Assembly: GCF_009914755.1 (NCBI RefSeq)
Contig: NC_060933.1
DNA: 64,000 bases
Reading direction: 5' to 3' (one strand)
DNA from: the human T2T-CHM13v2.0 reference genome, Homo sapiens
Below the pieces are notes generated by a model. It did no database searches, was not told where the DNA came from, and saw nothing but the letters and a program-made list of their open reading frames with translations. Below, piece after piece: positions 5,094 to 48,487 of this stretch. The position numbers and the translations under genes are program-made. Each line of letters starts with the position of its first letter. Position 1 is the first letter of the stretch.

Positions 5094-5276
5094 AGCGGGT
5101 GCTGACCCCTGAGCCACAACCACAGTTCTGGGTTTGGGGTTTGGTAAAACCACCCCAGGGACAGAGTTCTGGGGCCGGGTTTGGGAGGAACCAAGGCGCC
5201 TCCCAGGGATGGTGTGTCACTCCTGCTTGCCATGAAACGTGCACACAGGCTGTCCCCCTGCCCATCACATCCTGCT

Positions 5277-6241: not shown

Positions 6242-6449
6242 GACCATAGACTGTGACCCTCTCTCCGGCCACTCTGGCCCTTCCTTTACCTTTGTCCTGT
6301 CAGAATCTCTGAGCAAGATCTCCCAGGTCCATCCAGACCTGCTTTGTCCACTTTTGACTGGGCCATTGAACACCACTGGGCCACCCCAGCTGTCCACAGC
6401 CTCCTCGATAACATGCATTTCCCCTGACATCTCCCAGCAGTGCTCAGCA

Positions 6450-7315
6450 GCCCCCACTGACTAGGTCCCTGCTGAGCAGATTCAGCATATCAGATCCTCC
6501 CTGACCACACCCTCACTGATTAGACCCCCTTCACCAGGCCTCACTAACTAGATTCCCGCTGCCAGGCCCACAATGACCAGGACTCCACTGACAAGGACCT
6601 TACTGACAAGGCCTCACTGGCAAGGCCTCACTGACCAGGTCCTTGCTGACAAGGCCTCACTGATCAGGTTCCACCGATCATGACCCCATTGCCTGCTCCC
6701 ACAGATGAAGCCCCACTCACCAGGCCTGCAGGGAATAGGCTGCCAGTGACCAGGCCCCTGCTAACCAGGCCTGAGGTGACTAGATGCCCCTGACCAGGAC
6801 CCTAATGAGTATGCCCCACTGAACAGGCATGCACTGCTCAGATCCCCGCTGACCAGGTCACCCCGTAGACCAGTGCTACAAAAGCCACCACTGATCAAGT
6901 CCTCTCTGGCCAGGCCTCCACTGATTAGGTTTCCACGGACCAGCCTGCCCTGACCAGGGCCCCACTGACAAGAGCCTCTGCTGACTAGGTCCCACGTGAC
7001 CAGGCCTCCACTGAATAGCACCCCTTGACCTGGTCACCAGTAACCCAGCCCAATCTGACAAGGCCACCACTAAGTACTAGCTGACAAGGTCTCCACTGAC
7101 CAAGTCCCACAGCCCAGGTTGGCATTGACCAGACACCAAATATTTGTCTGCCACTAGGAACCCACTCACCAAGACCTGCACTACTAGGTCCCTCTAATGA
7201 GACCCTCTCTAAGCAGACCCCTGCTGACGACCCCCCACTAAATAGGCCTCACTTACCAAGTCCTGACTGACTAGGTCCACTGAGCAGGCCCACACTGATC
7301 AGGCCCCTCCTGACC
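6450..7315 (+). repeat. Degenerate ~18-bp GC-rich tandem array (core CCCACTGACCAGG), copy 1
   Basis: Dozens of variants of ccccactgaccaggcc / cctcactgacaaggcc in tandem. Confidence 0.85.
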
Positions 7316-10300
7316 ATATCAGAAGGTCAGGTGGCAATGAGATGTTTCATATGGCAGGAGTAGGAGCAAGACAGAGAGAGGAAAGAGGTCTGACATCCTG
7401 TTAGACAATCAAATCACATGAGAACTCACTATCAGGAGATCAGCATCAAGAAGACTAACCAATGGTGAAGGATTCTTCACCCACACCACCGCCCACTGCT
7501 TCCAGGCAGAAGCCTCCTACAGAGGCAGACCCTCTTAGGAAACTTCCACTATGGCAGTGCAGAAGGAAAATATAGGCTTTGAGCCCCCACACAGGAGGCC
7601 ACCATCCTCCAGACTCCAGATTTGTAAGCCCACCAACAGCTCACACCCTCGGTATGGAAAAGCTACAGGCACTCAACACCAACCCAGCCCATGAGAGCAG
7701 CCATGGGGGCTACACCCTGCAAAGCCACAGGTGCACTGTCCTAGTAGAGGTTTCCCATGAGCCTCTGCCTCTGCAGCAGGTTACTCCCACTCTCCCACCA
7801 CCCTACTGACAACCTACTCCTCCCCACACTACCCCTCCTTTTCCTTCCACCCCAATCCCCTCCCATCCAAGATTTAATCACTTCCCACCTGGCCCACCTC
7901 CAACATTAAGGATGACACATGAGTTTTATAGGGACACACAGCCAACCCATATTATTCTGACCCTGATACCCCAGAACCTCAGGTCCTTCTCACAGAGCAA
8001 AACACAATCATGCCTTTTCAAGTTTCCAAAAGTCTTAACTCATTCCAAATGTAAAAATTTCAAAGTCTCATCTGAGACAAGGTTACAGTCCCTTCTGCCA
8101 ATGAGTCCCTGAATTTAAAAGGGATTTCTTTTAAGGTACAGCAGATATTGGGTAAGGTTTCTCAATCCAAATGGAAGAAATTCCCCAGAAAAATAACACA
8201 AATGCAAGTCCAAAACCCAGCAGGACAGTATTCACTCAATCTCAGAGCTCCAAAGTCATCAAGAGAACTCACTGTCATGCGGACAGAATTAAGGAGATAG
8301 TGTTTACCCATTTGTGAAGGATCTGCCCCCCCCACTCTCATCTTTCACTCCCACCCACAAAATAATCTCTCCCATTCTCCCCACACCCCTACCTCCAACA
8401 CCCGCTGTTCTCCATGATTAAATCACCTCCCACCAGGTCCCACCTTTAACATTCCCCACTACAATTCCACATGAGTATTGTTAGGGACACAGAATCAAAT
8501 CATATTATTCTGACTCTTGCTCCCCAAATCTTGTATCCTTGTCACACTGCAAAATACATTGATGACTTCTCTACTGCCCCCCAGTGACTGAACTCATTCC
8601 AGCATTTACTGAAATGTACAAGGACTTACAGACCCCATGCAAGTCAAAAACCCAGCAGGCCAGTCATTGAATCCTACAGCTCCAAATCATCTTTTCTGAA
8701 TCTATATCTCACATCTAGAGCAGAGGTGTGTGATGCCTGGGCTCCCAAGGCCTTGGGCAGCTCTGTGCCTGTGGCTGTGCAGGGTCTATTCCCCACAGCT
8801 GCCCTCATGGGCTGGGCTGGCGTTGAGTGCCTGTAGCTTTCCCACACTAAGGGTGCCAGCTGTTGGTGGGTCTATGAATCTGGAGTCTGGAGAATGGTGC
8901 CTCCATATTTAGGGACTCCAACCCTATAGTCTCCTTCTGTGCTGCCCTAGTAAAGGTTTCCCATGAGGCTCTGCCTCTTGGAGAAGATTCTGCCTGAACA
9001 CCCAGGTTTTTCCTTACATACTCTGGAGTCTAGACAAAGGCTCCCAAGCCTCTAGTTTTGTGCTCTGTGCAGCTGCTGGCTTAACACTATGTGGAAGCCA
9101 CCAAGGCTTGAAGCTTGCACCCCTGAAGCAGTGATGCAAGCTATACTTGTGCATCTTTCAGCCATGGCTGGAACTAGAGCTGCAGGGATGCAGGCAACAG
9201 TGTCTTGAGGCTGCACATAGAGGGGGGTCATGGAACTAGCCCAGGAAACCATTCTTCTCTCCTAGGTCCCAGGGCCTATGATAGCAAGGGCTGCTGCAAA
9301 GGTTTCTGAAATGGCTTCAAGGCCTTTTGCCTATTGTCTTGGCTATTAGCACTGGGCTCCTTTTCATGCAAATTTCTGAAGCCTTCCTCAGTTTTCCCCT
9401 GAAAATGAGCTTTTCTTTTTGACCATTTGGCCAGGCTGCAAATTTTTGAGTTCTGTTTCTCATTTAATATAAGAGTTGGGACTGATTTAATGTAAGACCC
9501 ATCCAGATGTCATTTCCTCAGTCACACATAAGGGCACAGGCTGTTTGATACAGACAGGACACCCCTTCAGCTTTGCTGCCCAGAAGTTCATTCCATCAGA
9601 TACTCAGTAAGTCATTACCCTCAAGTTCAAAGTTTCATAGATCTCCAGGGCAGGGTCACTGTGCAGCCATGTTGCAGCAAAACAAAAGTAACCTTGGCTC
9701 CTGTTTGCAGGAAGTTCCTCCTTTTCATCTCAGAGCTTCTCAATCTGATCTTTACTGTCTATTTTCCTATGAGCCTGCTGATCACAAGTATTTAACAATT
9801 CTTTACAAAGATCCAAACTTTCCCTCATCTCCGTGTCTTCGAAGTCCTCCAAACTCTCCCAAACTTCATCTGCTACCCCCTTCTGAACCTGCTTCTACAT
9901 TATCAGCTATCTTTGTTGCAGGCTGGCAATGTGGTAAAGGAAGACAAGCCCATTTTCTGGGGAAAAATTCAAGGAGGCTTCAGATACTTGAATGAAAAGA
10001 AGCTGAGTGCTGATTGCCAAGACATTAGGGAGAAGGCCTTGAAGACATTTAATAGATCCACTTTGCAGTCATAATTTGCTCCATGATCATAAAGAAAAGA
10101 GGTTTAATTGGTTAATGATTCAGCAGGCTGTAAGGAAGCATAGTGGCTTGTGCATCTGACAGGACTCAGGAAGCCTCACAATCGTACCAGAATGTCAAGG
10201 GGCAAGGAGATGTCTCATATGGCAAGAGTAGGAGCAAGACTGAGAAAGGAAAAAGTTGTCATGCCTCATTATACAAGCAGATCTCATGAGAACTCACTAT

Positions 10301-13300
10301 CACAAGGTCAGCATCAAGAAGATGGTGCTTAAACATCGGTGAAGGATCTGACCCACACCCCCAACTCCCACTGTTTCCAGGCAGAAGCCCCCTTCAGATG
10401 AAGAGCCTCTTGGAAAACCTCTATTATGGAAGTGCAGAAAGAAAATGTGGGCTTGGAGCCCCCACACAGGTGGCCACCAACCTCCAGATCCCAGATTCAT
10501 AGACCCACCAACAACTCACGCCCCTGGTGTGGAAAAGCTACAGGCCCTCAATACCAGCCCAGCCCACGAGAACAGCTGAGGGGCTAAAACCTGCAAAGCC
10601 ACAGGTGCACTTCCCTAGTGGAGGTTTTCCATGACGCTTTGCCTCTGCAGCAGGCTACTCCCCCTTCTTACTTCCCCCCACCCTCCCACCACCCTACTGC
10701 CAACCCGCTCCTCCCCATCCTACCCATCCCTTTTACCTTCCACTACCACCAACCTCCTGTCCATAATTAAGTCACCTGCTTCAATATTAGGGATTACAAT
10801 TCCACATGAGTTTCATAGGGACACACAGCCAAACCATATAATTCTGACCCTGATATTCCAGAATCTCATGTCCTTATCACAGAGCAAAATACAATCATGA
10901 CTTTTCAAAAGTTTGCAAAATCTTAACTCATTCCAAATTTAAAAAATTCAGTCTCATCTGAGATAAGGCCACAGTCCCTTCTGCCTATGAGTCCCTAAAT
11001 TTAAAATGGAGTTTTTTTCTTTCAAGGTACAATGATGGTAGAGTCATTGTGTAATCTTTCTCAGTCCAAAGGGAAGAAATTTCTCAGAAAAATAACACAA
11101 ATGGGCCCACAGGCCCAATGCAAGTCCAAAACCCAGCAGGACAGTATTCACTCGATCTCACAGCTCCAAAATCATCAAGAGAACTCACGGTCATATGAAC
11201 AGCATTAAGGAGAGAGTGCTTAACCATTTGTGAAGGATCTGCACCCCCATCCTCATCTTTCACTCCCACCCACAAAATAATCTCCCCCATTCTCTCCACA
11301 CCCTTACCTCCAACCCCCATGCTTCTCCATGATTAAATCACCTCCCACCAGGTCCCACCTTCAACATTCCCCATTACAATTCCACACGAGTTTGGTAAGG
11401 ATGAAGAGCCAAATCATATTATTCTGATCCTGGCCCCCATATCTCATGTTGTTCTCACACTGCAAAATACAATGATGCCTTCTCTACAGTTCCCCAATCT
11501 CTTAACTCATTCCAGCATTTACTGAAATGTCCAAAGCCCAAAGTCTCGTCTGAGACAAGGCTGCCATATGTTCTACCTCTGAGCCTCTGAAATACCAAGC
11601 AAGTTAACTACTTCCAAAGTACAATGATTGTACATGCATTGGGTAATTATTCCCAGCCAAATGGAAGAAATTTGCCAGAAAGAAACACAAAACACAGATG
11701 GGACTTACAGACCCCATATAAGTCAAAAACCCAACAGGCCAGTCATTGAATCCTACAGCTCCAAATCATTTTTTTTTAACCCAGATCCCACATCCAGAGC
11801 ACAAGGGTATGAGGCCTGGGCTCCCAAGGCCTTGGGCAGGTCTGCACCTGTGACTTTGCAGGGTCTAACCTCCACAGTTGCCCTCATGGGTTGGGCTGGT
11901 GTTGAGTACCTATAGCTTTTCCACAATCAGGGTGCAAGCTGCTAATGAGTCTATGAAACTGGCGTTTGCAGAATGGTGCCTCCCTGTATGGGGTTCCAAC
12001 CCTATATGTTCCTTCTGTACTGCCCTAGTAAAGGAGGTTCTGCCTCTTGGAAAAGTTTCGACCTGGACACCTAGGTTTTTCCATACATACTCTGGAGTCC
12101 AGACAAAGGATCCCCAGCCTCTAGTTTTGTGCTCTGTGCACCTGCTGGCTTAACACTATGTGGAAGCCACCAAGGCTTGCAGCTTGCACCCTCTGAAGCA
12201 GTGACCCAAGCTGTACCTGTGCATCTTTCAGCCATGGCTGGAGCTGGAGCTTCAGGAATGCAGCCAGCACTGTCCTGAGGGTGGACATAGCAGCGAGGCC
12301 GTGGGGCTGGAGAAGGAAACCATTCTTTTCTCCCAGGCCTCAGGGCCGTTGATAGCAAGGGCTGCTGCAAAAGTCTCTGAAATGCCTTCAAGGCCTTTTA
12401 AACATTGTATTGGCTATTAGCACTGAACTCCATTTTATGCACATTTCTGAAGCCTTTTTGAACTTTCCCACTGAAAATCAGCTTTTCTTTTTGGCCACTT
12501 GGCCAGGCTGCAAATTTTCCAAACTTTTAAGTTCCCCTCATTTAAATATGTTTCACCTTGAGGTCATTTCTTTTGTCACATATAGGACCACAGGCTGTTC
12601 GACACAGACAGAACACCTCTTAAGCTTTGCTGCCTAAAATTTCATTCCACCAAATACACTCTAAATTATCACCCTGATGTTCAAAATTTCACAGGTCTCC
12701 AGGTTAGGGGCATTGTGCAGCAATGTTCTTTGCTAAGGAAAAAACAAAAGTGACCTTGGTTCCTGTTCCCAGCAAGCTCCTCATTTTCATATGAGACCTT
12801 CTAGGCCTGGTAATCACTGTCCATCCTTCTGTCACCTTTTTAATTATAACCATTTAACAAGTCTCTACACTGATCCAAACTTTTCCTCATCTTCCTGTCT
12901 TCTTCCAAGACCTCCAAACTCTCCAACCTCTGGCCATTACACACTTCTCAACCTGCTTCTACATTTTCAGCTATGTTTGTCACAGTCTGGCAATGTGGTA
13001 AGAGAAGAAAAGTCCATTTCAGGAGAAAAATTAATGCAGGCTTCACATATTTGCCTGAAAAGAAGCTGGGTGCTGATTGCCAAGACAATAGAGAAAAGGC
13101 CTTGAAGGCATTTCATAGCTCCACTTTATAGCATTAATTTTCTGTATAATCAGAAAGAAATGAGGTTAAACTGGCTGATGGTTCTACAAGCTTTAAATAA
13201 ATCATAGAGACTTCTGCTTCTGGGAGGATTCAGGAAACCTCCCAATCATACCAGAAGACCAAGCAGCAACGGGATGTTTTTTATGGCAGAAGTAGAAACA

Positions 13301-16300
13301 AAACAGAGAGGAAAAAGCTGCCACAAGCTGTATAACCCTGTTATACAACCAGATTTCCTGAGAACTCACTATCACAAGGTCAGTATCAAGATGTTGCTTA
13401 ACCATTGGTGAAATATCTGCCCCCTACCACCCACACCCCTCACTGTTTCCAGGCAGAAGCCTGAGGCAGAGGCAGAGCCACTAGGAAAACCTCTACTAGG
13501 GCAGAGCAGAAAAAATATATGGGCTTGGAGGCCCCACAAATGAGGTTCCCATCCTCAGAACCCAGATTCATAGACCCACCAACAGCTTGCACTCTCAGTA
13601 TGGAAAAGCTACAGGCACTCAACACCAGCCCAGCCCATGAGGGGAGCCACGGCGGCTACACCCAGCAAAGCCACAGGTGCACTGCCCTGGTAGAGGTTTT
13701 CCATGAGGCTCTGCCTCTGCAGCAGGCTACTCCCCCTTACTACTGCCCACCACAATCTCACCACCCTAGTGCCAGCCTACTCCTCCCCACCCTACCCATT
13801 TGTTTTCCCTTCTACCCCACCAACCTCCCGTTTGTGATTAAATCACCTCCCACCAGGCCCCACCTACAAGAGTTAGAAATACAATTCCCCATGAGTTTTT
13901 GTAGGGAAACACAACCAAACCATATTATCCTGACCCTGACACCCCCACATCTCATGTCCTTCTCACACAGAAAAATACAAACATGCCTTTTCAAAAGTTT
14001 CAAAAAGTCTTAAATCATTCCAGCAGTAACTCAAATGTAGAAAGTTCAAGTCTCATCCAAGACAAGGCTGCAATACCTTCTGCCTATGAGTCCCTGAATG
14101 TAAAAGACAATTCTTTTCTTTCAAGTTACAATGATGGCACAGGCACCGGGTAAGCTTTCTCAAACCAAAGGGAAGGTTTTCCCAGAAAAATAACACAAAT
14201 GGGACACAGGCCCAATCCGACTCCAAAACCCAGCAGGACAGCATTCATTTATCACGAGAACTCACTATCACACAGACTGCATTAAGGAGATAGTATTTAA
14301 CCATTTGTGAAGGATCTGTCACCCATCCCCATGTTTCACCCTCACCCACACCATGAACCTCCATTCCCCCACATCCCACTTCCAACCCCCATTCTCTACC
14401 ATGATTAAATCATCTTCTACCAAGCCCCACATTTAACATTCCCCATTACAATTCCACTTGAGTTTTGGTAGGGACACAGAGCCAAATCATATTATTCCCC
14501 CTTTGGCCCCCTAATCTCACATCCTTCTCATAGTACAAAATACAATGATGCATTTTCTACAGTCTCCCAATGACTGAACTCATTCCAGCATTTACTCAAA
14601 TGTCCATTTATGAAGGATCCACCCCCACCCCTGCCTTTCACCCCCAACCCCACCACAATCCCCCCAACCCTCCCCACCCCCCCAACCATCCAACCTCCAC
14701 TCTCCACCATGATTAAATCACCTTCCACCAGCCCCTACCTTTAACATTTCCCATTAAAATTACACATGAGTTTTGGTAGAGACACAGAGCCACAACATAT
14801 TATTCTGTCCCTGGTCCCTCAAAGTTCATGTCTTCCTCACATTGCAAAATGCAATGATGCCTTCCGTAGAGTCCCCCAAATCTTAACTCATCCCAACATT
14901 TACTCAAATGTCCAAAGCCCAAAGTCTCTTCTGAGACAAGGCTGCCATACCTTCTGCCCTGAGCCTCTGAAATACAAAGCAAGTTAACCACTTCCAAGGT
15001 ACAATGATTGTTGAGGCATTGGGTAAGCATTCCAAGCCAAAAAGAAGAAATTTGCCAGAAAGAAGGACAAAACACAGATGGGACTTACAAACCGCCTGCA
15101 AGCCAAAAACCCAGCAGGCCAGTCATTCCATCATACAGCTCCAAATCATCTTTTTGGAATCTACATCCACATCCAGAGCACAGGGTGGTGTGATGGCTGG
15201 GATCCCAAGGCCTTGGGCAGCTCTGCACCTGTGGCATTGCAGAATCTTCCCCCTACAGCTGCCCTCATTGGCTAGGCTGGTGTTGAGTGCCTGTAGCTTT
15301 TCAACACTAAGGGTGCAAGCAGCTGGTGGGTCTATGAAACTGCCGTCTGGAAAATGGTGCCTCCCTGTGTGGGGACTCCAACCCTATACTTTCCTTCTGT
15401 ACTTTCCTTCTGTACTGCCCAAGTAGAGGTTTACCATGAGGCTCTGTCTCTTGGAAAAGCTTCTGGCTAGGCACTCAGGCTTTCTGATATATCCTCTGAA
15501 GTTGAGACAAGGCTCTGAAACTTCTAGTCCTGTGCTTTATGCACCTGCTGGCTTAACACTATATGGAAGCCACCAAGGCTTGGAGCTTGCATCCTCTGAA
15601 GCAGTGACGCAAGCTGTACCTGTGCATCTTTCATCCATGGCTAGAGCTGGAAAGGGAGCTGCAGGGATGCAGGCAGCAGTGTCCTGAGGCTGCACACAGC
15701 AGTGGAGCCATGGGGCTGGGCCAGGAAACTATTCTTTTCTCCTAAACCCCAGGGCCAGTGACAGCAAGGGCTGCTACAAAGGTCCCTGAAATGCCTTCAA
15801 GGCCTTTTTTCCATTGTCATGAATTATTAGCACTGGGCTCTTTTTTATGCAAATATCCGAAGCCTTCTTGATTTTCCCCCTGAAAATCATCTTTTCTTTT
15901 TGACCAGTTGTCCAGATTAAAAATTTTCCAAATGTTGAAGCTCTGCTTCTCATTTAAATATAAGTTCCAACTTATGGTCATTTCTTTGATGACACATAGG
16001 AGCACAGGCTGTTCGACGTAGGCAGGACAGCTCTTGAGCTTTGCTGCTTAGAAGTTCATTCCACCAGATACACCCTAAATCATCACCCTCAAGTTCAGTT
16101 TCACAGATCTCCCGGGAAGGGTCACTGTGTAGCCAATTAATTTGCTAAGGCAAAACAAAAAAACCTTGGCTCCTTTTCCCAGTAAGTTCCTCAGTTTCAT
16201 CTGAGACCTTACAAGCCTGGCCTTCAGTGTCCATCCTTCTGTCAGCCTTGTAATCACAACTATTTAACAAGTCTCTGCAATGGTCCAAACTTTCCCTCAT

Positions 16301-19300
16301 CTTCCTGTCTTCTTCCAAGCTCTCCAAACTCTCTAACCTCTGGCCATTACCCAATTTGGAACCTGCTTCTACACTGTCAGCTATCTTTGTTGCAGCCTGG
16401 CAATGTGGTAAAAGAAGAAAAGTCCATTATCAGGGGGAAACATCAAGATGGCCTCCAATATTTGCATTGAAAAAAGCTCAGTGCTAATAGCCAAGAGAAT
16501 GGGGGAAACGCCTAGAAGTCATTTCATAACTTCACTTCACAGCATTAATTTTCTGTATCTACATAAAGAATAGAGGTCTATTTGACTCACAGTTCTTCAG
16601 GCTGTAAAGAAAGCATAGTGGTTTCTGCTTGTAGGAGGACTCAGGAAGCCTCCCAATTATACCAGAAGGCCAAGCGGCAATGAAATGTTTCATATGGCAG
16701 GAGTAGAAGCAAGACAGAGAGAGGAAAGAGGTGCGACATCCTGTTATACAACTAGATCTCATGAGAGCTCACTTTCAGGAGATCAGCACCAAGAAGATTG
16801 TGCTTAACTGTTGGTGAAGGATCCACCCACCAACCCATATCCACCACCCACTGTTTCCAAGCAAAAGCCTGAGGCAGAGGCAGATCCCCTTGGAAAACCT
16901 CTACTAGGGCAGTGCAGAAGGAAAATATGGGCTTGGAGCCCCCACGCCACCATCCTCCAGACCCAAGAGTCATGGACCCACCAACAGCTCACACCCCCAG
17001 TATGGAAAAGCCACAGGCACTCAACACCAGCCCAGACCATGAGAGCAGCTGCAGGTGCTAAACCCTGCAAAGCCACAGGTGCACTGCCTTAGTAGAGATT
17101 ATCCATGAGCCTCTGCCTCTGTGGCAGGCTACTCCCCCCTTGCTACACACCACCCTACATCCAGCCTACTCCTCCCCACCTTACCCACCTGTTTTTACTT
17201 TCAACCCCACCCCTCTCCCATCCATGAATAAATCACCTCTCACCAGGCCCCACCTGCAACATTCGGGATTACAATTACATGTGAGTTTAGGTAGGGACAC
17301 ACAGCTAAACCATATTATTCTGACTCTGATCCCCCAAATATCATATCCTTCTCACAGAGTAAAATACAATCATACCTTTTCAAAAGTTGCCAAAAGTCTT
17401 AAGTCATTTCAGCATTAACTCGAATGTAAAAAGTTCCACGTCTCACCTGAGAAAAGGCTACAGTCCCTTTTACCTATAAGTCCCTGAATTTAAAAGGGAG
17501 TTCTTTTCTTTCAAGGTACAATGATGGTACAGGCATTGGGTAAGTTTTCTCAATCCAAAGGGTAGAGGTTTGCCAGGAAAATAACACAAATGGGATCACA
17601 GGGCCAGTGCAAGTCCAAAACCCAGGAGGCCAGTATCCATTCAATCTCACAGCTCCAAAACCATCACAAGAACTCACCATCATGAGGAAAGGATTAAGGA
17701 GATGGTGTTTAACTATTTGTGAGGGATCCTCCCCCCACCCCCACTTTTCACCCCTCACCCCCAGCATAATCCACGCATTCTCCCCAATCTCCACCTTCCA
17801 ACACCCAGTGCCCTCCATGATTAAATCACCTTCCACCTGGCCCCACTTTTAACATTTCTGATTACAATTCCACATGAGTTTCCATACAGACACACAGCCA
17901 AATCTTATTATTCTGTCCCTGCCTCCTCAAATCTCATGTCCTTCTCACTTTGCAAAATACAGTGATGCCTTACTTACCATTCCCCAAGCCACTGTTTTTT
18001 TTTTTTGCAGTCTGCAGAACCATGAGCCAATTAAACCCCTTTATGTTATGATCATACAGAAAATTAGTACTGTGAAGTGAAGCTATGAAACGCCTTCAAT
18101 GACTTTTCCACATCGTCTTGGCTAAGACCCCCAAGGTCTTAACTCATTCCAGCATTTACTTAAATGTCTGAAGCCCAAAGTCTCATCTGAGACAAAGATG
18201 CAGTCCCTTCTGCTCCTGAGCCTCTGAAATACAAAGCAAGTTAACTACTTCCAAGGTATGATTGTCCAGGCATTGAGTAAGAATTCCTACTCGAAAGGAA
18301 GATTTTTGCCAGAGAGAAGAACAAAACACAAACGGGACTTACAGGTCCCATGAAAATCCAAAACCCAGCAGGCCAGTTATTAAAACCTACAGCTCCAAAG
18401 TCATCCTTTTTTAATCCTTGTCCCACATCCAGGGTACAAGGGCATGAGGGCTGGACTCCCAAGGCCTTGGGCAGGTCTGCACCTGTGTCTTTGCAGTTTT
18501 CAGTCCCCACAGCTGCCCTCATGGGCTGTGCTGGTGTTGAGTGCCTGTAGTTTTTACCCACGGAGGGTACAAAGCTCTTGGTGGGTCTATGAATCTGGGG
18601 TCTGCATGATGGTGGCCTCCAATGTGGGGGCTCCAACCCCATATTTTCCTTCTGCACTGCCCGAGTAGAGGTTTCCCAGGAGGCTCTGCTTTTTTGGCAG
18701 CCTTCTGTCTGGACACCCAGGCATTTTCATACATCTTCCAAAATCTATATGAAGGCTCTGAAGCCTCTGTGCTAGTGCTCTATGGACTCGCTGGCTTAAG
18801 ACTATGTGGAAGCCATGAAGCCTTATAGCTTGTACCCTCTGAAGCAGTGATGCAATTTGTACCTGTGCATCTTTCAGCCAAGGTCAGAGCAGGAGCTGGG
18901 CTGCTGGGATGCAGGCAGCAGTGTCCTGAGGCTGCACACAGCAGCAGGGCCATGGGGCTGGCCCCGGAAACCATTCTGCTCTCCTAGGCCCCAGGGCCTG
19001 TGACACCAAGGTCTGCTGCAAACATCTCTGAAATGCCTCCAAGGCTTTTTCCCCCATTGTCTTGGCTATTAGCACTGGCCTCCATTTTATGCAAATTTCT
19101 GGAGCCTTCATGAATTTTCCCCCTGAAAATCAGCTTTTCTTTTTGACCACTTGGCCAGGCTGCAAATGGTTCTAAACTTTTGAGCTCTGCTTGTCATTTA
19201 AATATAAGTTCCAACTTGAGGTCATTTCCTCGGTCACACAAGAACACGGGCTGTTTGATGCAGACAGGATCCCCCTTGTGCTATGCTGCCTAGAAGTTCA

Positions 19301-22300
19301 TTCCACCAGATATGCACTAAATCATCACCCTCAAGTTCAAAGTTTCACAGATCTCAAGGGCAAGGTCGCCCTGCAGCCATGTTCTTTGCTACAGCAAAAC
19401 AAAAGTAACCTTGGCTCCTGTTCCCAGTAATTTCCTCATTTTCATCTGAGACCTTGTAAGCCTGGCCTTCACTGTCCATCCTTCTGCCAGCCTTTTAATC
19501 ACAACTATTCAACAAGTGCCTACGATGGTCCAAAATTTCCTTGATCTTCCTGTCTTCTTTGAAGCTCTGCAAACTCTCCAACCTCTGGCTGTTACCCACT
19601 TCTGAACCTGCCTTACATTTTCAGCTATCTTTGTTGCAGCCTGACAATGTAGAAGAAAAAGAAGTCCATTTTCAGGGGGAAAGTTCAAGAAGGCTTCAGA
19701 TATTTGCATTAAAAAGAAGTCCAGTGCTAACAGCCAAGACGATGGGGAAATGTCATTAAAGATATTTCATAGCTCCACTTCACAGTACTTTATTTTCTGT
19801 ATGATGATAATGAAAAGGGGTTTAATTGGCTCATGGTTCTGTAGGCTGTAAAGAAAGCATAGTGGCTTCTGCTTCTCGGGGGACTCAGGAAGCCTCCCAA
19901 TCATACCAGTAGGAAAACAGCAATGAAATGTTTCTTACGGCAGGAGTAGGAGCAAGGCTGAGAGAAGAAAGAGGTGCCACACCGTTATATAACCAGATCT
20001 CATGAGAACTCACTATCGCTAGGTCAGCATCAAGAAGATGGTGCTTAACCATTGGTGAAGGATCCGCCCCCCAACACAGCTCCACCCCCTACTGTTCCGG
20101 ACAGAAGCCTGCTGGAGAGGCAGAGGCTCTTGAAAATCCTGTACTATGGCAGTGCAGAAGGAAAATAAGGGCTTTGACTTACTATGCAGGAGGCCACCAT
20201 CCTCGAGACCCCAGATTCATAGACCTACCAACAGTTCACACCCTCAGTATGGAAAAGTGATAGGCACTCAATACCAGCCCAGCCCATGAGAGCAGCCATG
20301 GGGGCTAAAGCCTGCAAAGCCACAGGCACACTGCCCTGGTAGAGGTTTTCCATGAGCCTCTGCCTCTGCAGCAGGCTACTCCCCCTTCCTACTATCCATC
20401 ACCTTCCCACTGCCCTACAGCCGGCCTACTCTTCCCCACCCTACCCACCCCTTTTTTCTTCCACCCCTACCCCTCCCATCCATGATTAAATAATCTCCCA
20501 CCAGGCCCCACCTCCAACATTTGGGATTACAATTCCACATGAGTTTTTCCAGGGGCACACAGCCAAATCATATTATGCTGACCTTGACCCCCCATATCTC
20601 ATATCCTTCTCACAGAATAAAATACAATCATGCCTTTTCAAAAGTTTCCAAAAGCCTTAATTCCTTCCTGCATTAACTCAAATGTAAAAAGTTCTAAGTC
20701 TCATCTGAGACAAAGCTACAGTCTCTTCTGCCTATGAGTTCCTGGAGTTAAAAGGGTGTTTGTTTCTTTCAAGGTACAATGATGGTACAGGTACTGGGTA
20801 AGCTTTCTCAATCCAAAGGGAAGAAATTTCCAAGAAAAATAACACAAATGGGACAACAGGCCCAATGGACATCCAAAATCCAGTAGGTCAGTGTTCATTC
20901 AATCTCACAGCTCCAAAATCATAAAGAGAACTCACTATCAGAAGGACAGCATTAAGGAGACGGTGTTTAAACATTTGTGAAGGATCCACCCCCACCCCTG
21001 CCTTTCACCCCCAACCCCATCACAATCCCCTCCAACCCTCCCCATCCCCAATTCCCTCCAACCCTCTCCACCCCAGAATCCCCCCAACCCTTCCCGTGCC
21101 CCCAGCCATCCAACCTCCACTCTCCACCATGATTAAATCACCTTCCACCAGCCCCCACCTTTAACATTTCACATTAACATTTCACATGAGCTTTGGTAGA
21201 GACAGAGAGCCAAAACATATTATTTTCTGTCCCTGGTCCCCCAAAGTTCATGTCTTTCTCACATTGCAAAATGTAATGGTGCCTTCCCTAGAGTCTCTCA
21301 AATCTTAACTCATTCCAGCATTTATTCAAATGCCCAAAGCCCAGAGTCTTATCTGAGACAAGTCTACAGTCCCTTCTGCCCATGAGCCACTGAATTATAA
21401 AGCAAGTTTTCTACTCCCAAGGTACAATGATTTTACAGGCAATGAGTAAGCATTCCCAGCCAACAGAAAAAAAATTGCTAGAAAGAAGCACAAAACACAG
21501 ATGGGACTCGTAGGATACATAAATGTCCAAAACCCAGCAGGCCAGTCACTCATTCCTACAGCTCCAAAATCATCATTTTTGAATCCTTGTCCCATATCCA
21601 TGACACAGGGCTGTGAGGGCTGAGCTCCCAAGGCCTTGGGCAGATCTGCACCTGTGGCTTTGCAGCGTTCAGCCTCCGTGGCTGTCTCTCATGGACAGGG
21701 CTGTTGTTGAGTGCCCATAGCTTTTCCACACTGAGGGTGCAAGCTGTTTGTGGGTCTATGAATCTGGGGTTTAGAGAATGATGCCTCCCTGTGTGGGGGC
21801 TTCAACCCTATAGGTCCCTTCTTTGCTCCCCTAGTAGAGGTTCCCCATGAGGCTCTGCCTCTTGGAAAAGCTTCTTCCTGAACATCCAGGATTTTCTGTA
21901 CATCTTCTGGAGTCTAGACAGGAGCTCCCAAGCCTCTAGTCTCTTTCTCTGTGCACCTACTGGCTTAACACTATATGGAAACCATCAAGACTTTGAGCCA
22001 CCTCTGAAGCAATGACCCAAGCTGTACCTGTGCATCTTTCAGCCATGGCTGATGCTGGAGCTGCAGGGATGCAGGCAGCAGTGTCCTGTGGTTGAGCACA
22101 GCGGCAGGGCCATGGGACTGGCCTAGGAAACCATTCTTCTCTCCTAGGCCCCAGGGTCTGTGACAGCAAGGGCTGCTGCAGACATCTCTAAAATACTTTC
22201 AAGGCCGGTTTCCCACTGTGTTGTCTTTTTGCACTGGGTTCCTTTTTATGCAAATACCCTAAGCCTTCTTGAATTTTCCCGCTCAAAATCGGCTTTTCTT

Positions 22301-24712
22301 TTTGACCACTTAGCCAGGCTCCAAATTTTCCAAACTTTAGATCTCCACTTGAAGTTCCAACTTGAAGTCATTTCTTAGGTCACCCATAAGAACACAGGCT
22401 GTTCAATGCAGACAGGACACCTCTTATGCTATGATGCCTAGATGTTCATTTCACCAGATACATCCTAAATCATCACCCCCAAGTTCATAGTTTCACAGAT
22501 CTCCAGGGCAGGGTCCCCGTGCAGCCAGTTTCTTTGCTAAGGCCAATCAAATGTAATCTTGGCTCTTGTTCATAGGAAATTCCTCATTTTCATCTGAGAA
22601 CTTTTAGGTCTGGACTTCAGTGTTTACACTTTAGTCAGCCTTCCGATCACAAGTATTTAACAATTCTCTATCGTGGTCCAATATTTTCCTCATCTTGCTG
22701 TCTTCTAAGCTTTCCCAGCTCTTCTGACCTCTGTCTTTTACCCACTTCTGAACCTGGTTCTACATTGTCAACTATCTTTATCACAGCCTGGCAATGCGGT
22801 AAAACAGAAAAGTCCATTTTCAGGGGGAAAATTCACGAAGGCTTCAGATATTTGCATGAAAAGAAGCTGAGTGCTGGTTGCCAAGACAAAGGGGAAAGGG
22901 CCTTGAAGGCATTTCATGGCTCCACTTCATAGCACTAATTTTCTGTATGATCATAAAGAAAAGAGGTTTAATTGGCTCACGGTTCAGCAGGCTGTAAAGG
23001 AAACACAGTGGCTTCTGTTTCTGGGAGGATCAGATCAGGAAGCCTCCCAATCATACCAGAAGGCCAAGGGGCAATGAGATATTACAAATGGCAGGAGAAG
23101 AAGCAAGACTGTGAGAGGAAAGAGGTGCCAGGTGAAGGATCTGCCTCCCACCTCCACCTCCCACTGTTTCCAGGCAGAAGCCTGCTGCAGATGAAGAGTT
23201 CCTGGGAAACTTCTACTAGGGCAGTGCAGAAGGAAAATATGGACTTGGAGCCCCCATGCAGGGGGCCACCACCCTCTAGACCCCAGATTCATAGACCCAC
23301 CAACAGCTTGCACCCTCCGTGTGGAAAAATCTACAGGCATTCAACACTAGTCCAGTCCATGAGAGCAACCATGGGGGCTCAAACCTGCAAAGCCACAGGT
23401 GCACTTCCCTAGTAGGGATTTTCCATGAGGCTCTGTCTCTCCATCAGGCTACTCCCCCTTCCTACTACCCACCACCCTCCCACCACCGTACAGCCAGTCT
23501 ACTCCCTCCCAACCTACCCACCCCTTTTTCCCTTCCACATCCACCCGCACCCATCTATGATTACATCACTCCCTCCCACGCCCCGTCATACTCTAATCCC
23601 TCCAAACCCTTCCAGTCTTTGTTTGCTACCCACTACTGAGCCTGCTTCTACTTTTTCAGAAATCTGTATAGCAGGTTGTCTATGTAGCAATAACAAAAAT
23701 CCCATTTAAAGGGAAACATTCAAGAAAACTTCAGAAATTTGCATATAAAGAAGCCCTGTGCTAATAGCCAAAACAAAGGGAAAAAGGCCTTGAAGACATT
23801 TCACAGCTCCTCTCTGCAGTTCTAATTTTCTGTATTATTGTAAATAAAAGAGGTGTAATTGACTCATGGTTCTGCAAGCTGTGAAGGAAGTATAGTGTCT
23901 TCTGTTTCTGGGAGGAATCAGGAAGCCTCTTCATTACATCAGAAAGCCAAGGGACAATGAGATGTCTCCTAAAGCAGGAGCAGGAGGGAGACAGAGTGAG
24001 GAAAGAGGTTCCACAGCCTGTTAAACAACCAGATCTCATGGGAACTCACTCACTTTCAGGAGGATAGCATCAAGGTGATGGTCCTTTATCATTAGTGAAG
24101 TATCTACCTGCACCATTTTATGACTAAATCTTTTTCCACCTAGACCTTGCCTCTAACATTACAAAACATAATTCCACATGAGTTTTGATAGGGACATAGA
24201 GAAAAACCGTATTATTCTGCCCTTGACCCCATGAATCTCATGTCCTTCTCAAATTGCAAAATACAATCATGCCTTGCCAGCAGTCTCCCAAAGTCTTAAC
24301 TCATTTCAGGATTAACTCAAAGTTACAAAGTCCAAAGTCTCATCTGGGTCAAGGCTACATTCTCTTTTGCCTGTGAGTCTCTGAAATAAAAAGCAAGGCC
24401 ACTGCTTCTAAGGTACAATGATGGTACAGGCATTGTGTAAGCTTTCCATATCCAAAAGGAAGACATTTTCCAGAAAGCTTCTTATTTCTCTCTGAGACCT
24501 CCTCAGCCTGGCCTTCACTGTCCATTTTTTCTGTCAGGATTTTTGTCACAACCATTGAACCAGACTCTAAGATGGTCCAAAAGTTTTCTCATCTATCTAT
24601 CTTCTTTTGAGCCCTCCAAACTCTTCCAACCTCCGTCCATTACCTGGTTCCAAAGCTGCTTCCACATTTCCAGGTATCTTTATAGCAATGCTCCAGTCCT
24701 CATTTGCCATTT
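7316..24712 (-). repeat. Macrosatellite-like tandem array of rearranged MaLR (MST/THE1-like) LTR+internal units, ~2.9-3.4 kb period
   Basis: Marker cagaagcc...ggcagtgcagaaggaaaat recurs near 7506, 10381, 13453, 16861, 20101 and 23174; LTR marker aaagaggtttaattggctca near 10091, 13154, 16565, 19812, 22954 and 23846; MaLR internal ORF remnants such as LEEDRKMRESLDHCRDLLN (16145..16354-). Confidence 0.9.
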
Positions 24713-25068
24713 TCTGTATGATTTATTTTGAAAAAGAGGTTTAATTGGCTCATGGTTCTAAGCACAGTGCTTCTGCTTCTAGGAGGCCTCAGAAATCTTT
24801 CAATAATCATGGAAGGCAAAGAAAGAATCAGTTGTCTCACATGGCAAGGGGAAAGCATGGAGAGTAGGAAGGTGATATAGAGTTTTCAGTGACCACATCT
24901 CATGAGAAGTCACTCATTATTGTGAGGATGGTACAAGGGGATGGTGCTGAACCATTCATGAGAAATTTGCCTTCATAATTCAATCACCTTATCCCAGGAT
25001 CCACCTTCCACATTAGGAAATATAATTCAACATGATATTCGGTGGGGACACACATTCAAATTGCATCG
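24713..25068 (-). mobile_element. Largely unrearranged MST-like MaLR LTR (5' LTR of the array's founder element)
   Basis: Complete LTR layout (gaggtttaattggctcatggttct ... ggtggggacacacattcaaa) adjoining the 5' start of MaLR internal sequence at about 24480-24712 (minus: gctataaagatacctggaaatgtggaagcagctttggaac). Confidence 0.8.
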
Positions 25069-25069
25069 T

Positions 25070-26681
25070 CAATCTTTGAATATAAAGACATCCACAGCAG
25101 GCTTTATCCAGCCAACTTCTTTGAGACTCTTTATAGGGTTTGAGGTCTAGAGCATATACACTAAAATATTCATACTTCAAAAAGCAATAAAGTGGTATTA
25201 TCATTTTTCCAAAAGTTACAGCAGTAGTTTAGGCATTCATAGTATGATTTAGTTCACGTTTGTTACTGTTTCTATTCTATCACCATATTAACTGTTTCCT
25301 ATACAATTCTGTATTCAGCTGGATTTCAGTTGAGCACAAAACCATCCTTGTACTAGCTGTTTGCTAGTGTTATTATTCTGCTGTAGAAAGTATCCTTGAA
25401 CTGGAAACCATCCACGATCGAGTATCGAGTCATTCAACACTATCAATTCCTGGGTGACTTTTTGAAAAAGTAGTATCTCTTGTTGCAAGAAATGCTGCAT
25501 CTGTGAGTCCATGTCTCTCACTGGAATTGGATGGAAGTGGTGAATTTCAGCCAAAGTTGCCAAAGAAATCCTGTTCCTGTGATTCTAACGTCATCAGCCT
25601 CTATACCTCTGTCTTCCCTTCTGCCACAGGTTGCCTGTTCTCCATGACTTTGGTAAGAGCTTCCTTGTGTATGTGGATGAAGTCCAGGATGTTGGTCTGG
25701 TGTCCCTGAGACAGCACTAACAGGTCCATGGCTGGGTCCAGGTCCTTTCTGGACTGATTGGCAAAGAGCTCACTGACAGAGTGGAAGGCATCTATACTGA
25801 AGTGGATGGTCTGGTCCAGCTCCAAGGCCTGGCTGAGGCTGAAGAAGAACTGTCAGGCTTCTGATGCTCTTTCTCAAACCCTGTCACCACTCATTGCCTG
25901 TGAAGTTAAGCTGAGTGCCCTGTTGTCCATCTTCTTGGTGAAGCACTTGAAGCCATCAATCTTGCTCTCCCACTCCTAAAAGTTGAGTGTCACCCTGCGG
26001 GTGGGCTCAGGGCCAGGAAGAATCTGGCACTCACCATCTCATTCTTCTCAGCCTTCCTCTTGCCCTGTCTCCAGGCTGTCTCTTCAGTGGTGGTAGGGCA
26101 CATCAGGAAATGACAAAAAATGGGGCACTGTGACTGCACCCAGAAGCTGGCTGTGTGGTTCATCTACAAGATTGGGCCCTTTCTGCACTTGAACATAGAT
26201 CCCACTTCACCATAGATGCGTTCCACACTGTCAGTGAGCTGTTTGCCAATCAGCCCAGGCAGGACCTGGACCCAGACATGGACCTGTTAGTGCTGTCTCA
26301 GGGACACCAGGCCAACATTCTGGACATCATCCACATACCCAAGGAAGCTCTTACCAGAGTCCTCCTCAAGATGGCCTGTGGTCTGCCTCTTGGCACCCGA
26401 GAAGCCCAGTGCTGTAGAAGCCCCGATGCTTGGACTGGAGCCCCAAAGGTGGCACACACCCCACTTCAGAGCCTGCTGCTCCTTTCCTCTATGTGGCTCC
26501 ATTTGCAGCACATTTGTTGCACTGGGGCCTGTGCATGCCAGGCAAAGCCAAGCTGGCTCAAAGAGCAACCAGCCACCTCTGCAAGGGTGTGCCAGGAGCC
26601 AGTGGACCAGCCACCAACGTCACTCCCTGCCAGTCAGGGTAAATCAGTTATTCTTCCCTGGAGGTAGAGACCCAGTGCCAT
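25070..26681 (-). pseudogene. SNX18P: Processed SNX18 (sorting nexin 18) pseudogene, rearranged
   Basis: Minus-strand remnants of the SNX18 PX-BAR region: [43 protein letters not shown]...DFIHIHKEALTKV (intronless across the exon junction), ATLAEIHHFHPIPVRDMDSQMQHFLQQEILLFQKVTQ, then 3'UTR; many indels. Region 26400-26681 (possible ATG GCA CTG start at 26681) is tentative; paralog number not assignable. Confidence 0.9.
26199..26361 (+). repeat. Inverted duplicate of 25646-25807 inserted in the SNX18 pseudogene
   Basis: HFTIDAFHTVSELFANQPRQDLDPDMDLLVLSQGHQANILDIIH on + (26155..26667) mirrors the 25601..25825 minus ORF. Confidence 0.92.
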
Positions 26682-26876
26682 CTGCTTTTCCTCAGGCCTC
26701 CACTCCATCAGCTCTCAGGTGGTGGTCACTCAGACTGTGGGAACCTGGCCATCCCTGTTTCCTTGAGTGGGTGAGGTTGGTGACTGCTCCACCTGCTCTT
26801 GGCACACCCTTGCAGAGGTGGCTGGTTGCTCTTTGAGCCAGCTTGGCATTGCCTGGCATGCACAGGCCCCAGGTAC
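26521..26876. repeat. Inverted repeat, ~105-bp arms (26521-26626 and 26765-26876)
   Basis: ggggcctgtgcatgccaggcaaagccaagctggctcaaagagcaaccagccacctctgcaagggtgtgcca and its near-perfect reverse complement. Confidence 0.92.

Positions 26877-47860: not shown

Positions 47861-48487
<627 letters not shown>

What the first reader, a model, noticed from the sequence alone, without database searches (positions are those of the whole stretch)
7316..25068. A ~17.7-kb macrosatellite built from one rearranged MaLR (MST-like) retroelement
Seen: five ~2.9-3.4-kb units (approx. 7316-10075, 10076-13140, 13141-16550, 16551-19795, 19796-22940), two shortened units (22941-24712) and one conventional LTR (24713-25068). 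The long units share the same unusual junctions (inverted cassette inside the LTR, duplicated LTR end, C-rich spacers). Inference: a single scrambled element was tandemly amplified, rather than many independent insertions. Repeat masking would likely fragment it into dozens of LTR/int hits and hide the periodicity. It is the best candidate here for an under-described structure, though it may already be catalogued as a composite repeat.
Basis: partly seen in the sequence, partly recalled or inferred. Interest (0 to 1): 0.75.

Follow-up and report, generated by a model that had tools for sequence, protein, structure and literature searches.

The report
Known MaLR "LTR array" megasatellite copy
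This is a real, roughly 18-kb tandem array of a rearranged ancient MaLR retroelement, but it belongs to a megasatellite family ("LTR arrays") already described in 2008, so it is an old, decayed and ordinary passenger of pericentromeric duplications.

Summary
Window ~7300-25068 is a tandem array with start-to-start spacings of 2875/3071/3402/3247/3073 bp. It has five long units, two ~0.9-kb short units and a terminal LTR. Units share the same non-canonical junctions.

It is not new. Warburton et al. 2008 (PMC2588610) described "LTR arrays": ~3.5-kb MaLR-only monomers (MSTA and THE1 LTR pieces, MSTA-int in both orientations), 25 arrays, 10 of them on chr9. Their two array-specific primers hit once per unit here, in the expected orientation. 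In T2T-CHM13, 93 of 93 exact hits of one primer fall in 25 clusters, 10 on chr9, including this one.

Units differ by K2P 0.20-0.25, so the amplification is ancient and was never homogenised. Each unit has a positional ortholog in paralogous arrays: chr21/chr4 at K2P 0.04-0.06, the chr13 HOR array at 0.05-0.09, and other chr9/chr2 arrays at 0.07-0.16. The finished array was therefore copied by segmental duplication in waves. chr1/chr14 carry a U1/U2 crossover chimera.

No long ORF survives, and CpG o/e is 0.10. Verdict: already known, low interest.

The parts
6574..7306 (.). Left-flank 14-15-bp/29-30-bp minisatellite that abuts the first, 5'-truncated LTR of the array. It is part of the duplicon shared with the paralogs.
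   Evidence: TRF rows; sequence; window 2659-7810 is collinear with chr21 and chr4 at 94-95%.
7300..25068 (+). Whole MaLR 'LTR array': five long units, two short units and a terminal LTR. All LTR matches lie on the + strand.
   Evidence: published primers once per unit.
7300..10086 (+). Unit 1. It begins inside the LTR, at about LTR position 108-122 of ~355.
   Evidence: nhmmer with single dispersed LTRs; offset 2868-2875 to unit 2.
10087..13144 (+). Unit 2 (about 3.06 kb).
   Evidence: positional orthologs on chr21 and chr4 at K2P 0.043-0.056.
13145..16559 (+). Unit 3 (about 3.4 kb). It is longer because of an extra ~300-bp local duplication, 14301-14606 versus 14604-14914.
16560..19788 (+). 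Unit 4 (about 3.2 kb).
19789..22920 (+). Unit 5 (about 3.1 kb).
22921..23837 (+). Short unit 6: the LTR 5' part plus the cassette region only. The window lacks 77 bp at 23130/23131 relative to all four close paralogs.
23838..24712 (+). Short unit 7: an uninterrupted LTR of the unit type (23838-24197) followed by heavily deleted internal-region remnants.
   Evidence: K2P 0.305 to the unit LTR part.
24713..25068 (+). Terminal uninterrupted MaLR-like LTR of a different type from the unit LTR.
   Evidence: nhmmer E 1e-20 to 2e-21 over LTR positions 45-353; K2P 0.55 to the unit LTR and 0.48 to the LTR at 23838-24197.
10087..10320 (+). Example in unit 2: the first ~3/4 of the LTR (LTR positions ~50-265).
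10373..10609 (-).
   Evidence: Minus-strand self matches; minus-strand match to dispersed element L035.
10788..11176 (+).
   Evidence: K2P 0.32 to the main copy.
11322..12986 (+). Example in unit 2: LTR end followed by nearly the whole internal region, collinear with the dispersed full-length elements.
   Evidence: 1744-nt alignment to L034 and 1290+367 nt to L035.
12983..13121 (-). Example in unit 2: second small inverted piece derived from the internal region.
25069..27600 (.). Right flank, copied together with the array in every paralog examined.
   Evidence: 80-97% identity at all 10 fetched arrays.

Best explanation
The region is one copy of the known human 'LTR array' megasatellite (Warburton et al. 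2008). I reconstruct its history in four steps.

1. A non-autonomous ERVL-MaLR element was rearranged. Print names it MSTA/MSTA-int with THE1 LTR pieces. Two small internal pieces were inverted, and the LTR end plus the start of the internal region was duplicated.
2. This composite was amplified in tandem with a period of one LTR plus one rearranged internal region. I infer unequal exchange between LTRs, the usual route to LTR-int-LTR-int tandems. This happened in one burst in an early anthropoid ancestor.
3. The units then diverged without homogenisation.
4. The finished array with both flanks was copied repeatedly by pericentromeric and acrocentric segmental duplication. Afterwards individual paralogs underwent unequal crossing-over: unit loss on chr1/chr14, higher-order repeats on chr13/18/21, and a perfect 6.2-kb dimer expansion at chr9:77.8 Mb.

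The window copy itself has no detectable function. It is decayed, CpG-depleted intronic DNA of an uncharacterised lncRNA.

Shown here: periodicity, family membership, unit orthology, relative order of events, and the crossover chimera. Inferred: the LTR-LTR exchange mechanism, absolute dates, and lack of function.
For: Membership.
- Warburton primer 1A hits the + strand 5 times and primer 2B hits the - strand 6 times (plus one weak + hit), once per unit. Chance expectation is 0.02 and 0.00.
- The primer-to-primer distances are about 1.5 and 1.6-1.9 kb, against the paper's two ~1.7-kb products (passage).
- Genome-wide, 2B with up to 1 mismatch gives 168 hits against 0 for the reversed control.
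- 1A exact gives 93 hits against 0 control. All 93 fall in 25 clusters on chr1, 2, 4, 9, 13, 14, 18, 20, 21 and 22, ten of them on chr9. The paper reports 25 arrays, ten on chr9.

Anatomy.
- Two dispersed relatives are LTR (~355-378) - internal (~1.5-1.6 kb) - LTR.
- The unit maps to the LTR end plus nearly the whole internal region collinearly on the + strand, plus small inverted pieces.

Burst amplification without homogenisation.
- The 10 unit pairs have K2P 0.203-0.246, mean 0.226.
- Adjacent pairs are not closer than distant pairs.

Amplification before dispersal.
- U1-U5, the tail and both flanks lie in the same order on chr21:0.30 Mb and chr4:49.17 Mb at K2P 0.036-0.059.
- chr13 HOR array 0.054-0.086; chr2 0.074-0.112; chr9:40.3 and 77.8 Mb 0.079-0.135; chr9:33.6 Mb 0.10-0.16.
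- chr8 flank 0.15-0.16, with no 1:1 unit orthologs.

Later unequal exchange.
- The chr1 unit is 92-96% identical to U1 for its first ~1.9 kb, then 92-97% identical to U2.
- Seven paralogs, including chr1 and chr14, have a 16.7-kb interval between flanks; this window and chr21:0.3 Mb have 19.9 kb.
- A 6208-bp block repeats at 100% identity at chr9:77.8 Mb.

Age anchor. 5'/3' LTR K2P in the two dispersed elements is 0.206 and 0.199, about equal to the unit-unit distance.

Decay. The longest mechanical ORF is 164 aa, with 18 ORFs of 90 aa or more. Print gives 464 aa for the only intact MaLR ORF (PMC3836709 passage). CpG o/e is 0.10.
Against: - No repeat library (Dfam/RepeatMasker) was available. 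The subfamily names MSTA and THE1 rest on print, not on a test of this copy.
They seem to belong to a different subfamily from the array element (internal-region K2P 0.39-0.41, against 0.245 between the two of them).
- No other primate genome could be searched, so the dates rest on divergence alone. Gene conversion between paralogs could make the duplications look younger than they are.
- The period here is 2.9-3.4 kb, not the ~3.5 kb in print.
- This chr9 copy is not recognisable among the 18 rows of the paper's Table 3 (hg18 coordinates). The closest rows by size are its paralogs: 4p11 at 17.8 kb/5 units and 1q12 at 14.4-14.7 kb/4 units.
- Copies duplicated within a unit differ by K2P 0.14-0.375. 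This leaves open in-situ scrambling against nested insertion of other MaLR copies.
- Lack of function is inferred. No expression or chromatin data were examined.
Confidence: 0.88

Rival explanations
1. The unit is a mosaic of two or more independent MaLR insertions (for example an MSTA element with a nested, oppositely oriented second copy and a THE1 LTR), later trimmed by deletions and amplified. It would not be one element scrambled in place.
For: Print reports both MSTA and THE1 LTR fragments and MSTA-int in both orientations. The terminal LTR differs strongly from the unit LTR (K2P 0.55). In unit 2, the intra-unit copies differ more (K2P 0.32-0.375) than the units differ from each other (0.226).
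Against: In unit 4 the homologous intra-unit pairs are closer (K2P 0.18 and 0.14). Every piece maps to the same LTR-internal-LTR architecture. No library was available to assign pieces to subfamilies.
Confidence: 0.4
2. It is a cluster of many independent MaLR insertions into a hot spot, with no tandem amplification.
For: MaLR elements are very abundant: print gives 19,782 MSTA and 22,433 THE1B copies. An 18-mer from the unit occurs about 1,486 times genome-wide with up to 1 mismatch.
Against: The units are collinear over ~3 kb, including inverted pieces, the duplicated LTR end and the C-rich spacers, all at the same positions. Unit-unit identity is 79-82%, against 69-70% to dispersed copies. 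Spacing is regular.
Confidence: 0.01
3. It is a young, concertedly evolving macrosatellite of the D4Z4/DXZ4 kind, variable in copy number at this locus and possibly functional.
For: A sister array at chr9:77.8 Mb holds 100%-identical 6.2-kb dimers. The chr13/18/21 arrays have higher-order repeats, and FISH showed variable presence on acrocentric chromosomes.
Against: In this array neighbouring units differ by 18-21%. Each has a 94-96% positional ortholog on other chromosomes, so there has been no homogenisation since those duplications. CpG o/e is 0.10. FISH showed no variation on non-acrocentric chromosomes.
Confidence: 0.05
4. The array is a regulatory or chromatin element, for example a DUX4-responsive promoter array, a boundary element, or the source of the surrounding lncRNA.
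For: DUX4 binds and activates MaLR LTRs (PMC3836709 abstract and passages). The array lies inside lncRNA LOC124906850 (annotation supplied with the finding).
Against: Only 3.0% of MSTA LTRs are DUX4-bound in that study (table passage). No annotated exon lies in the array. Rfam finds nothing in it. No expression or chromatin data were examined, and I did not scan for the motif.
Confidence: 0.05

Closest known systems
'LTR arrays' MaLR megasatellite family (Warburton et al. 2008, BMC Genomics 9:533, PMC2588610)
   Same: The monomer is ~3 kb and built only of MaLR LTR and internal pieces in both orientations. Both published primers match once per unit. The array sits in pericentromeric segmental duplications. 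Paralog arrays lie on the same chromosomes, ten of them on chr9. Its 17.75 kb and five long units match the paper's 4p11 entry (17.8 kb, 5 units), whose T2T counterpart is 94-95% identical and collinear with the window.
   Different: The window has no higher-order repeat, unlike chr13/18/21. The period is 2.9-3.4 kb rather than ~3.5 kb. This exact chr9 copy cannot be matched to a row of the paper's Table 3 (hg18).
Tandem LTR-internal-LTR-internal-LTR proviral arrays formed by unequal LTR-LTR exchange (general ERV phenomenon; recalled, not from a call)
   Same: There is one LTR start per period. Consecutive internal regions are separated by a single LTR. All are in the same orientation.
   Different: There are many more copies than the usual two. 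The unit carries about 1 kb of extra rearranged pieces. The mechanism is inferred, not shown.
Classical macrosatellites (D4Z4, DXZ4, TAF11-like; review PMC5687341, passages only)
   Same: Kilobase-scale tandem units that include retroelement pieces.
   Different: Units here are only 79-82% alike, there is no gene in the unit, and the array is dispersed by segmental duplication rather than confined to one or two loci.
T2T-CHM13 'composite' repeats (Hoyt et al. preprint 10.1101/2021.07.12.451456, passages only)
   Same: [quoted passage not shown] Like ACRO_Comp, it is spread over many chromosomes including the acrocentrics.
   Different: The main text has 0 occurrences of MaLR, MST or THE1. The list of 19 composites is in a supplementary table that I could not open, so I cannot say whether this family is in that track.

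Membership tests
Warburton 'LTR arrays' megasatellite | Tandem monomers of about 3.5 kb | tested here: met
   Spacings are 2875, 3071, 3402, 3247 and 3073 bp, somewhat shorter than the printed ~3.5 kb.
Warburton 'LTR arrays' megasatellite | The published array-specific primers (pairs 1A/2B and 2A/1B) match conserved sites once per unit and split the unit into two ~1.7-kb products | tested here: met
   1A: 5 hits on +, 3 of them exact. 2B: 6 hits on -, 3 of them exact, plus 1 weak hit on +. Shuffles give 0.02 and 0.00. Distances are ~1.52 kb and 1.59-1.92 kb.
Warburton 'LTR arrays' megasatellite | The unit consists of MaLR LTR fragments and internal sequence in both orientations | tested here: met
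   The unit maps to the LTR and internal region of two dispersed LTR-internal-LTR elements on the + strand, with two small pieces on the - strand. About 150-300 nt per unit (the C-rich spacers) did not match either comparator.
Warburton 'LTR arrays' megasatellite | The pieces are specifically MSTA and THE1 LTRs and MSTA-int | not testable with these tools
   No Dfam/Repbase library or RepeatMasker was available. The names are taken from print.
Warburton 'LTR arrays' megasatellite | Embedded in interrelated segmental duplications, with paralogous arrays on chr1, 2, 4, 8, 9, 13, 18, 21 and FISH signals on chr14, 15, 20, 22 | tested here: met
   Primer clusters and flank paralogs lie on chr1, 2, 4, 8, 9, 13, 14, 18, 20, 21 and 22, with flank-only matches on chr3 and chr15.
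HOR subtype of the LTR arrays (chr13/18/21) | Six-monomer higher-order repeat, each carrying an LTR6A insertion | tested here: not met
   No unit pair in the window is closer than K2P 0.203, so there is no higher-order repeat here. However, the window's U1-U5 have 90-93% orthologs, in order, inside the chr13 HOR array. LTR6A was not looked for.
ERVL-MaLR retroelement | LTRs of ~350-430 bp flanking a ~1.5-1.6-kb internal region without pol or env | tested here: inconclusive
   Two dispersed relatives show LTR 355-378 / internal 1.53-1.63 kb / LTR, and the unit aligns to them. Gene content was deliberately not examined. The class name comes from print.
Concertedly evolving macrosatellite (D4Z4-like) | Near-identical units within an array | tested here: not met
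   Unit-unit identity over aligned columns is 79-82%.

The most novel reading that the evidence does not exclude
The window array is a relic of the ancestral monomer series: five of at least seven ancient monomer types, in their original order. The six-monomer higher-order repeats of chr13/18/21 were later built from this series. The array plus its flanks acts as a core duplicon linking 9q12-proximal DNA with chr1, chr4, chr20 and all acrocentric short arms. The family is still recombinationally active in humans, as the perfect 6.2-kb dimers 1 Mb away suggest, so some copies may be unrecognised copy-number variants.
Probability: 0.35. Interest if true: 0.35.

Novelty: already known. Interest (0 to 1): 0.18.

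Why it matters
It matters little as a discovery, because the family was published in 2008 with FISH probes and a genome map.

The work here adds a relative chronology: burst amplification, then at least four waves of segmental duplication, then local unequal exchange. It also adds unit-by-unit orthology between the simple arrays and the higher-order-repeat arrays.

Because the units diverged without homogenisation, each monomer type is a durable marker for tracing how pericentromeric and acrocentric duplicons moved between chromosomes. The arrays are also a caution for repeat annotation: they hold many internal-region copies of this MaLR type, and none arose by transposition.

Tried and rejected
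- **Whole-unit genome search.** It returned no scores because there were too many candidates. I replaced it with primer/pattern searches and flank queries.
- **Tandem Repeats Finder.** It cannot see a 3-kb period.
- **RefSeq soft-mask table.** It carries no family names and covers little of the array, so it was useless for naming.
- **LTR orientation recalled from memory.** I guessed that the LTRs lay on the minus strand. The nhmmer mapping showed all LTR matches on the + strand, so I dropped the guess.
- **DUX4-motif scan.** I considered it and did not run it. The paper passages I saw print no motif, and I would not type one from memory. MSTA is also only weakly bound (3.0%).
- **Later literature.**
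  - 'LTR arrays' + MSTA found 1 paper, Warburton 2008 itself.
  - T2T-CHM13 + composite + MSTA + tandem found 0.
  - MSTA + acrocentric + tandem found 6, none on this family except Warburton. The OwlRep paper (PMC5765563, passages) concerns an unrelated MSTA+HSAT6 cluster.
  - MaLR + higher-order repeat found 13, none relevant by title or abstract except Warburton.
  - A citing-paper search found 5, none relevant by title or abstract.
  - Two reviews (PMC5687341, PMC3465993; passages only) do not mention the arrays.
- **Supplements.** Table S2 of the T2T repeat paper may list this family.
- **Rfam.** It found nothing in the array.
- **Absolute dating.** Dates use recalled neutral rates (about 2.2e-9 per site per year overall, about 1e-9 in hominoids) and are rough.
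Full report

Yes. The repeat finder on window 5000-28000 returns 20 direct-repeat families. Their in-register copies are spaced 2875, 3071, 3402, 3247 and 3073 bp. A gapped self-BLAST of window 1-40000 gives collinear unit-to-unit alignments of 1.3-4.9 kb at 74-80% identity, plus a recurring set of short minus-strand matches inside each unit. Tandem Repeats Finder reports nothing for the array because its longest period is 500. It does find a 14-15-bp minisatellite (6574-7306) that abuts the array's left end. The array runs from ~7300-7316 to ~25052-25068.

**2. Anatomy**

Two dispersed genomic relatives were found through an 18-mer conserved in all five units and fetched as L034 and L035. Both have the structure LTR (355-378 bp) - internal region (1.53-1.63 kb) - LTR. 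Against them, a long unit reads as follows, using unit 2 as the example:

| Window position | Strand | Content |
|---|---|---|
| 10087-10320 | + | LTR positions ~50-265 |
| 10373-10609 | - | inverted piece derived from the internal region |
| 10788-11176 | + | extra copy of the LTR end plus the first ~350 nt of internal sequence |
| about 11177-11321 | . | C-rich spacer |
| 11322-12986 | + | LTR end plus nearly the whole internal region, collinear with the comparators |
| 12983-13121 | - | second small inverted internal piece |

The next LTR follows at 13145. C-rich stretches (41-47% C) recur twice per unit. The period therefore equals one LTR plus one rearranged internal region.

The tail holds a short unit (22921-23837). 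It then holds an uninterrupted LTR of the unit type (23838-24197) followed by deleted internal remnants. Last comes a terminal uninterrupted LTR (24713-25052) of a clearly different type: K2P 0.55 to the unit LTR and 0.48 to the neighbouring LTR.

**3. What it is**

Warburton et al. 2008 (PMC2588610; passages, section 8 read whole) described exactly this as 'LTR arrays':
- ~3.5-kb monomers consisting entirely of MaLR pieces: MSTA and THE1 LTR fragments, and MSTA-int in both orientations;
- 25 arrays on 9 chromosomes, 10 of them on chr9;
- location in interrelated segmental duplications;
- six-monomer higher-order repeats (HORs) on chr13, 18 and 21.

Their FISH primers give a direct membership test:
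- Primer 1A matches the window's + strand 5 times and primer 2B the - strand 6 times (plus one weak + hit), once per unit. Shuffles give 0.02 and 0.00.
- In T2T-CHM13, 2B with up to 1 mismatch occurs 168 times against 0 for the reversed control (only the first 100 places were listed).
- 1A occurs exactly 93 times against 0 control. All 93 fall in 25 clusters on chr1, 2, 4, 9, 13, 14, 18, 20, 21 and 22.
- Ten of those clusters are on chr9, at about 33.60, 38.58, 40.33, 42.97, 44.49, 76.83 (this window), 77.82, 79.73, 105.06 and 109.32 Mb.
- Adding loci seen only with 2B (chr8:43.79 Mb, chr22:7.50 and 7.63 Mb, and four small loci at chr2:130.5-131.7 Mb) gives at least 32 loci.

The subfamily names come from print. 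I had no repeat library to test them.

Within the window, the ten pairs of the five long units have K2P 0.203-0.246, mean 0.226. Adjacent pairs (0.203-0.246) are no closer than non-adjacent pairs (0.217-0.237). This points to a single burst followed by independent decay, with no concerted evolution.

Both flanks and every unit have positional counterparts in other arrays:

| Paralog array | K2P to the window | Unit correspondence |
|---|---|---|
| chr21:0.30 Mb, chr4:49.17 Mb | 0.036-0.059 | left flank, U1-U5, tail, right flank in the same order |
| chr1:127.87 Mb, chr14:5.72 Mb | 0.034-0.055 | same order, one period missing |
| chr13:17.96-18.00 Mb (HOR array) | 0.054-0.086 | U1-U2-U3-U4 and U2-U3-U4-U5-tail in order, separated by two monomers that match no window unit above 83% |
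| chr2:95.27 Mb | 0.074-0.112 | distal U2-U5, tail and flank in order |
| chr9:40.3 and 77.8 Mb | 0.079-0.135 | no ortholog of U3; unit order differs |
| chr9:33.6 Mb | 0.10-0.16 | no clear ortholog of U1 |
| chr8:43.79 Mb | flank 0.15-0.16, tail 0.18 | no 1:1 unit orthologs (0.19-0.25) |

The monomer types therefore existed before every duplication except possibly the chr8 split. All arrays descend from one ancestral array copied together with its flanks. Surprisingly, this chr9 copy is closest to arrays on chr1, 4, 13, 14, 21 and 22, not to the other nine chr9 arrays.

As an internal yardstick, the 5' and 3' LTRs of the two dispersed elements differ by K2P 0.206 and 0.199. That is about the unit-unit distance.

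Absolute ages rest on recalled rates and are rough. At about 2.2e-9 per site per year, the amplification comes out near 50 Myr. The older duplications fall at about 25-35 Myr. The closest group falls at about 10-20 Myr, older if the slower hominoid rate applies.

Print gives compatible anchors, from passages only. An MSTA insertion is placed in an early simian ancestor (PMC5765563). A THE1B insertion shared by Old and New World monkeys is dated to 40-75 Myr (PMC3836709).

**5. Later unequal exchange**

The chr1 unit that replaces U1 and U2 is 92-96% identical to U1 over its first ~1.9 kb and then 92-97% identical to U2. This is a crossover chimera that removed one period.

The distance between the two flank matches tells the same story:
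- It is about 16.7 kb at chr1, chr4:49.38 Mb, chr13:10.48 Mb, chr14:5.72 Mb, chr21:7.51 Mb, chr22:7.62 Mb and chr22:10.55 Mb.
- It is 19.9 kb in this window and at chr21:0.30 Mb.

The sizes match the paper's rows: 1q12 at 14.4-14.7 kb/4 units and 4p11 at 17.8 kb/5 units.

**6. Function**

None is apparent.
- The longest mechanical ORF in the array is 164 aa, with 18 ORFs of 90 aa or more. Print gives 464 aa for the one intact MaLR ORF.
- CpG observed/expected is 0.10 and GC is 46%.
- Rfam finds nothing in the array.
- The array lies in an intron of lncRNA LOC124906850, with no annotated exon inside it (and the supplied table).

I commit to 'neutral passenger of segmental duplication' at about 0.85. 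Regulatory or chromatin roles are untested.

**7. Novelty**

Already known. Searches of the held library found no later paper on this family. The main text of the T2T repeat preprint has no occurrence of MaLR, MST or THE1. Its supplementary list of 19 composites was not available to me, so I cannot say whether the family is in the T2T composite track. The modest additions here are the unit-by-unit orthology across arrays, the relative chronology, the reading of the period as LTR plus internal region, and the crossover chimera.

**8. Limits**

- Only 2 dispersed comparators were available.
- There was no repeat library, no other primate genome, and no reads or population data.
- Gene conversion may bias the distances.
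- The listing of primer 2B hits was cut at 100 of 168.

Noticed in passing
window 1436-1510 (+): Rfam gathering-level match to the mir-3118 microRNA precursor family (98.5 bits against a gathering score of 89, full length 1-76 of 76). It is not in the RefSeq gene table supplied for the window. It lies in the duplicated left flank.
   Followed up: no
L030-L032, G000 chr9:77,816,000-77,838,000 (sister array about 1 Mb distal): A 6208-bp two-unit block repeats at 100% ungapped identity over ~16 kb of lag comparison. Primer sites are spaced exactly 6208 bp apart. This is either a very recent expansion, and so a possible copy-number variant, or an assembly artefact. The otherwise similar arrays at chr9:40.3, 43.0 and 79.7 Mb do not show this exact 6208-bp primer spacing.
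   Followed up: partly
window 6574-7306 and 28418-28587: Related 14-20-bp minisatellites (TGACAAGGCCTCAC-like units) lie on both sides of the array. The left one directly abuts the truncated first LTR.
   Followed up: no
window 25646-25805 and 26202-26361: A 160-bp inverted repeat at 91% identity sits in the right flank. It is conserved in the paralogs. In five paralogs (chr4:49.19, chr20:30.12, chr14:3.98, chr21:6.59 and chr22:7.51 Mb) the flank alignment breaks just after the first arm (window ~25787/25863), which suggests a deletion or rearrangement there.
   Followed up: no
window 26358-26970 (query positions 1259-1871): This ~620-bp flank segment is itself tandemly repeated elsewhere, with an apparent period near 640 bp. 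The arrays lie at chr15:18.74 and 19.84 Mb, chr21:11.99 Mb, chr20:30.09 Mb, chr4:49.41 Mb and chr13:10.51 Mb, at 82-86% identity. It looks like a separate satellite-like family next to some LTR arrays.
   Followed up: no
window 4691-5094: A ~400-bp dispersed repeat has copies at 85-88% identity on many chromosomes (chr1, 5, 6, 7, 15, 18, 22). It has not been identified.
   Followed up: no
window 47859-48172: A 62/126-bp tandem repeat, 5 copies at 84% matches, lies outside the finding.
   Followed up: no
window 16880-17083 versus 18478-18689, and 18000-18123 versus 19732-19856: In unit 4 the inverted intra-unit pairs are much closer (K2P 0.18 and 0.14) than the pairs measured in unit 2 (0.33 and 0.375; the second unit-2 pair lies at a different position in the unit). 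This could be local gene conversion between inverted copies, or a unit-4-specific event.
   Followed up: no
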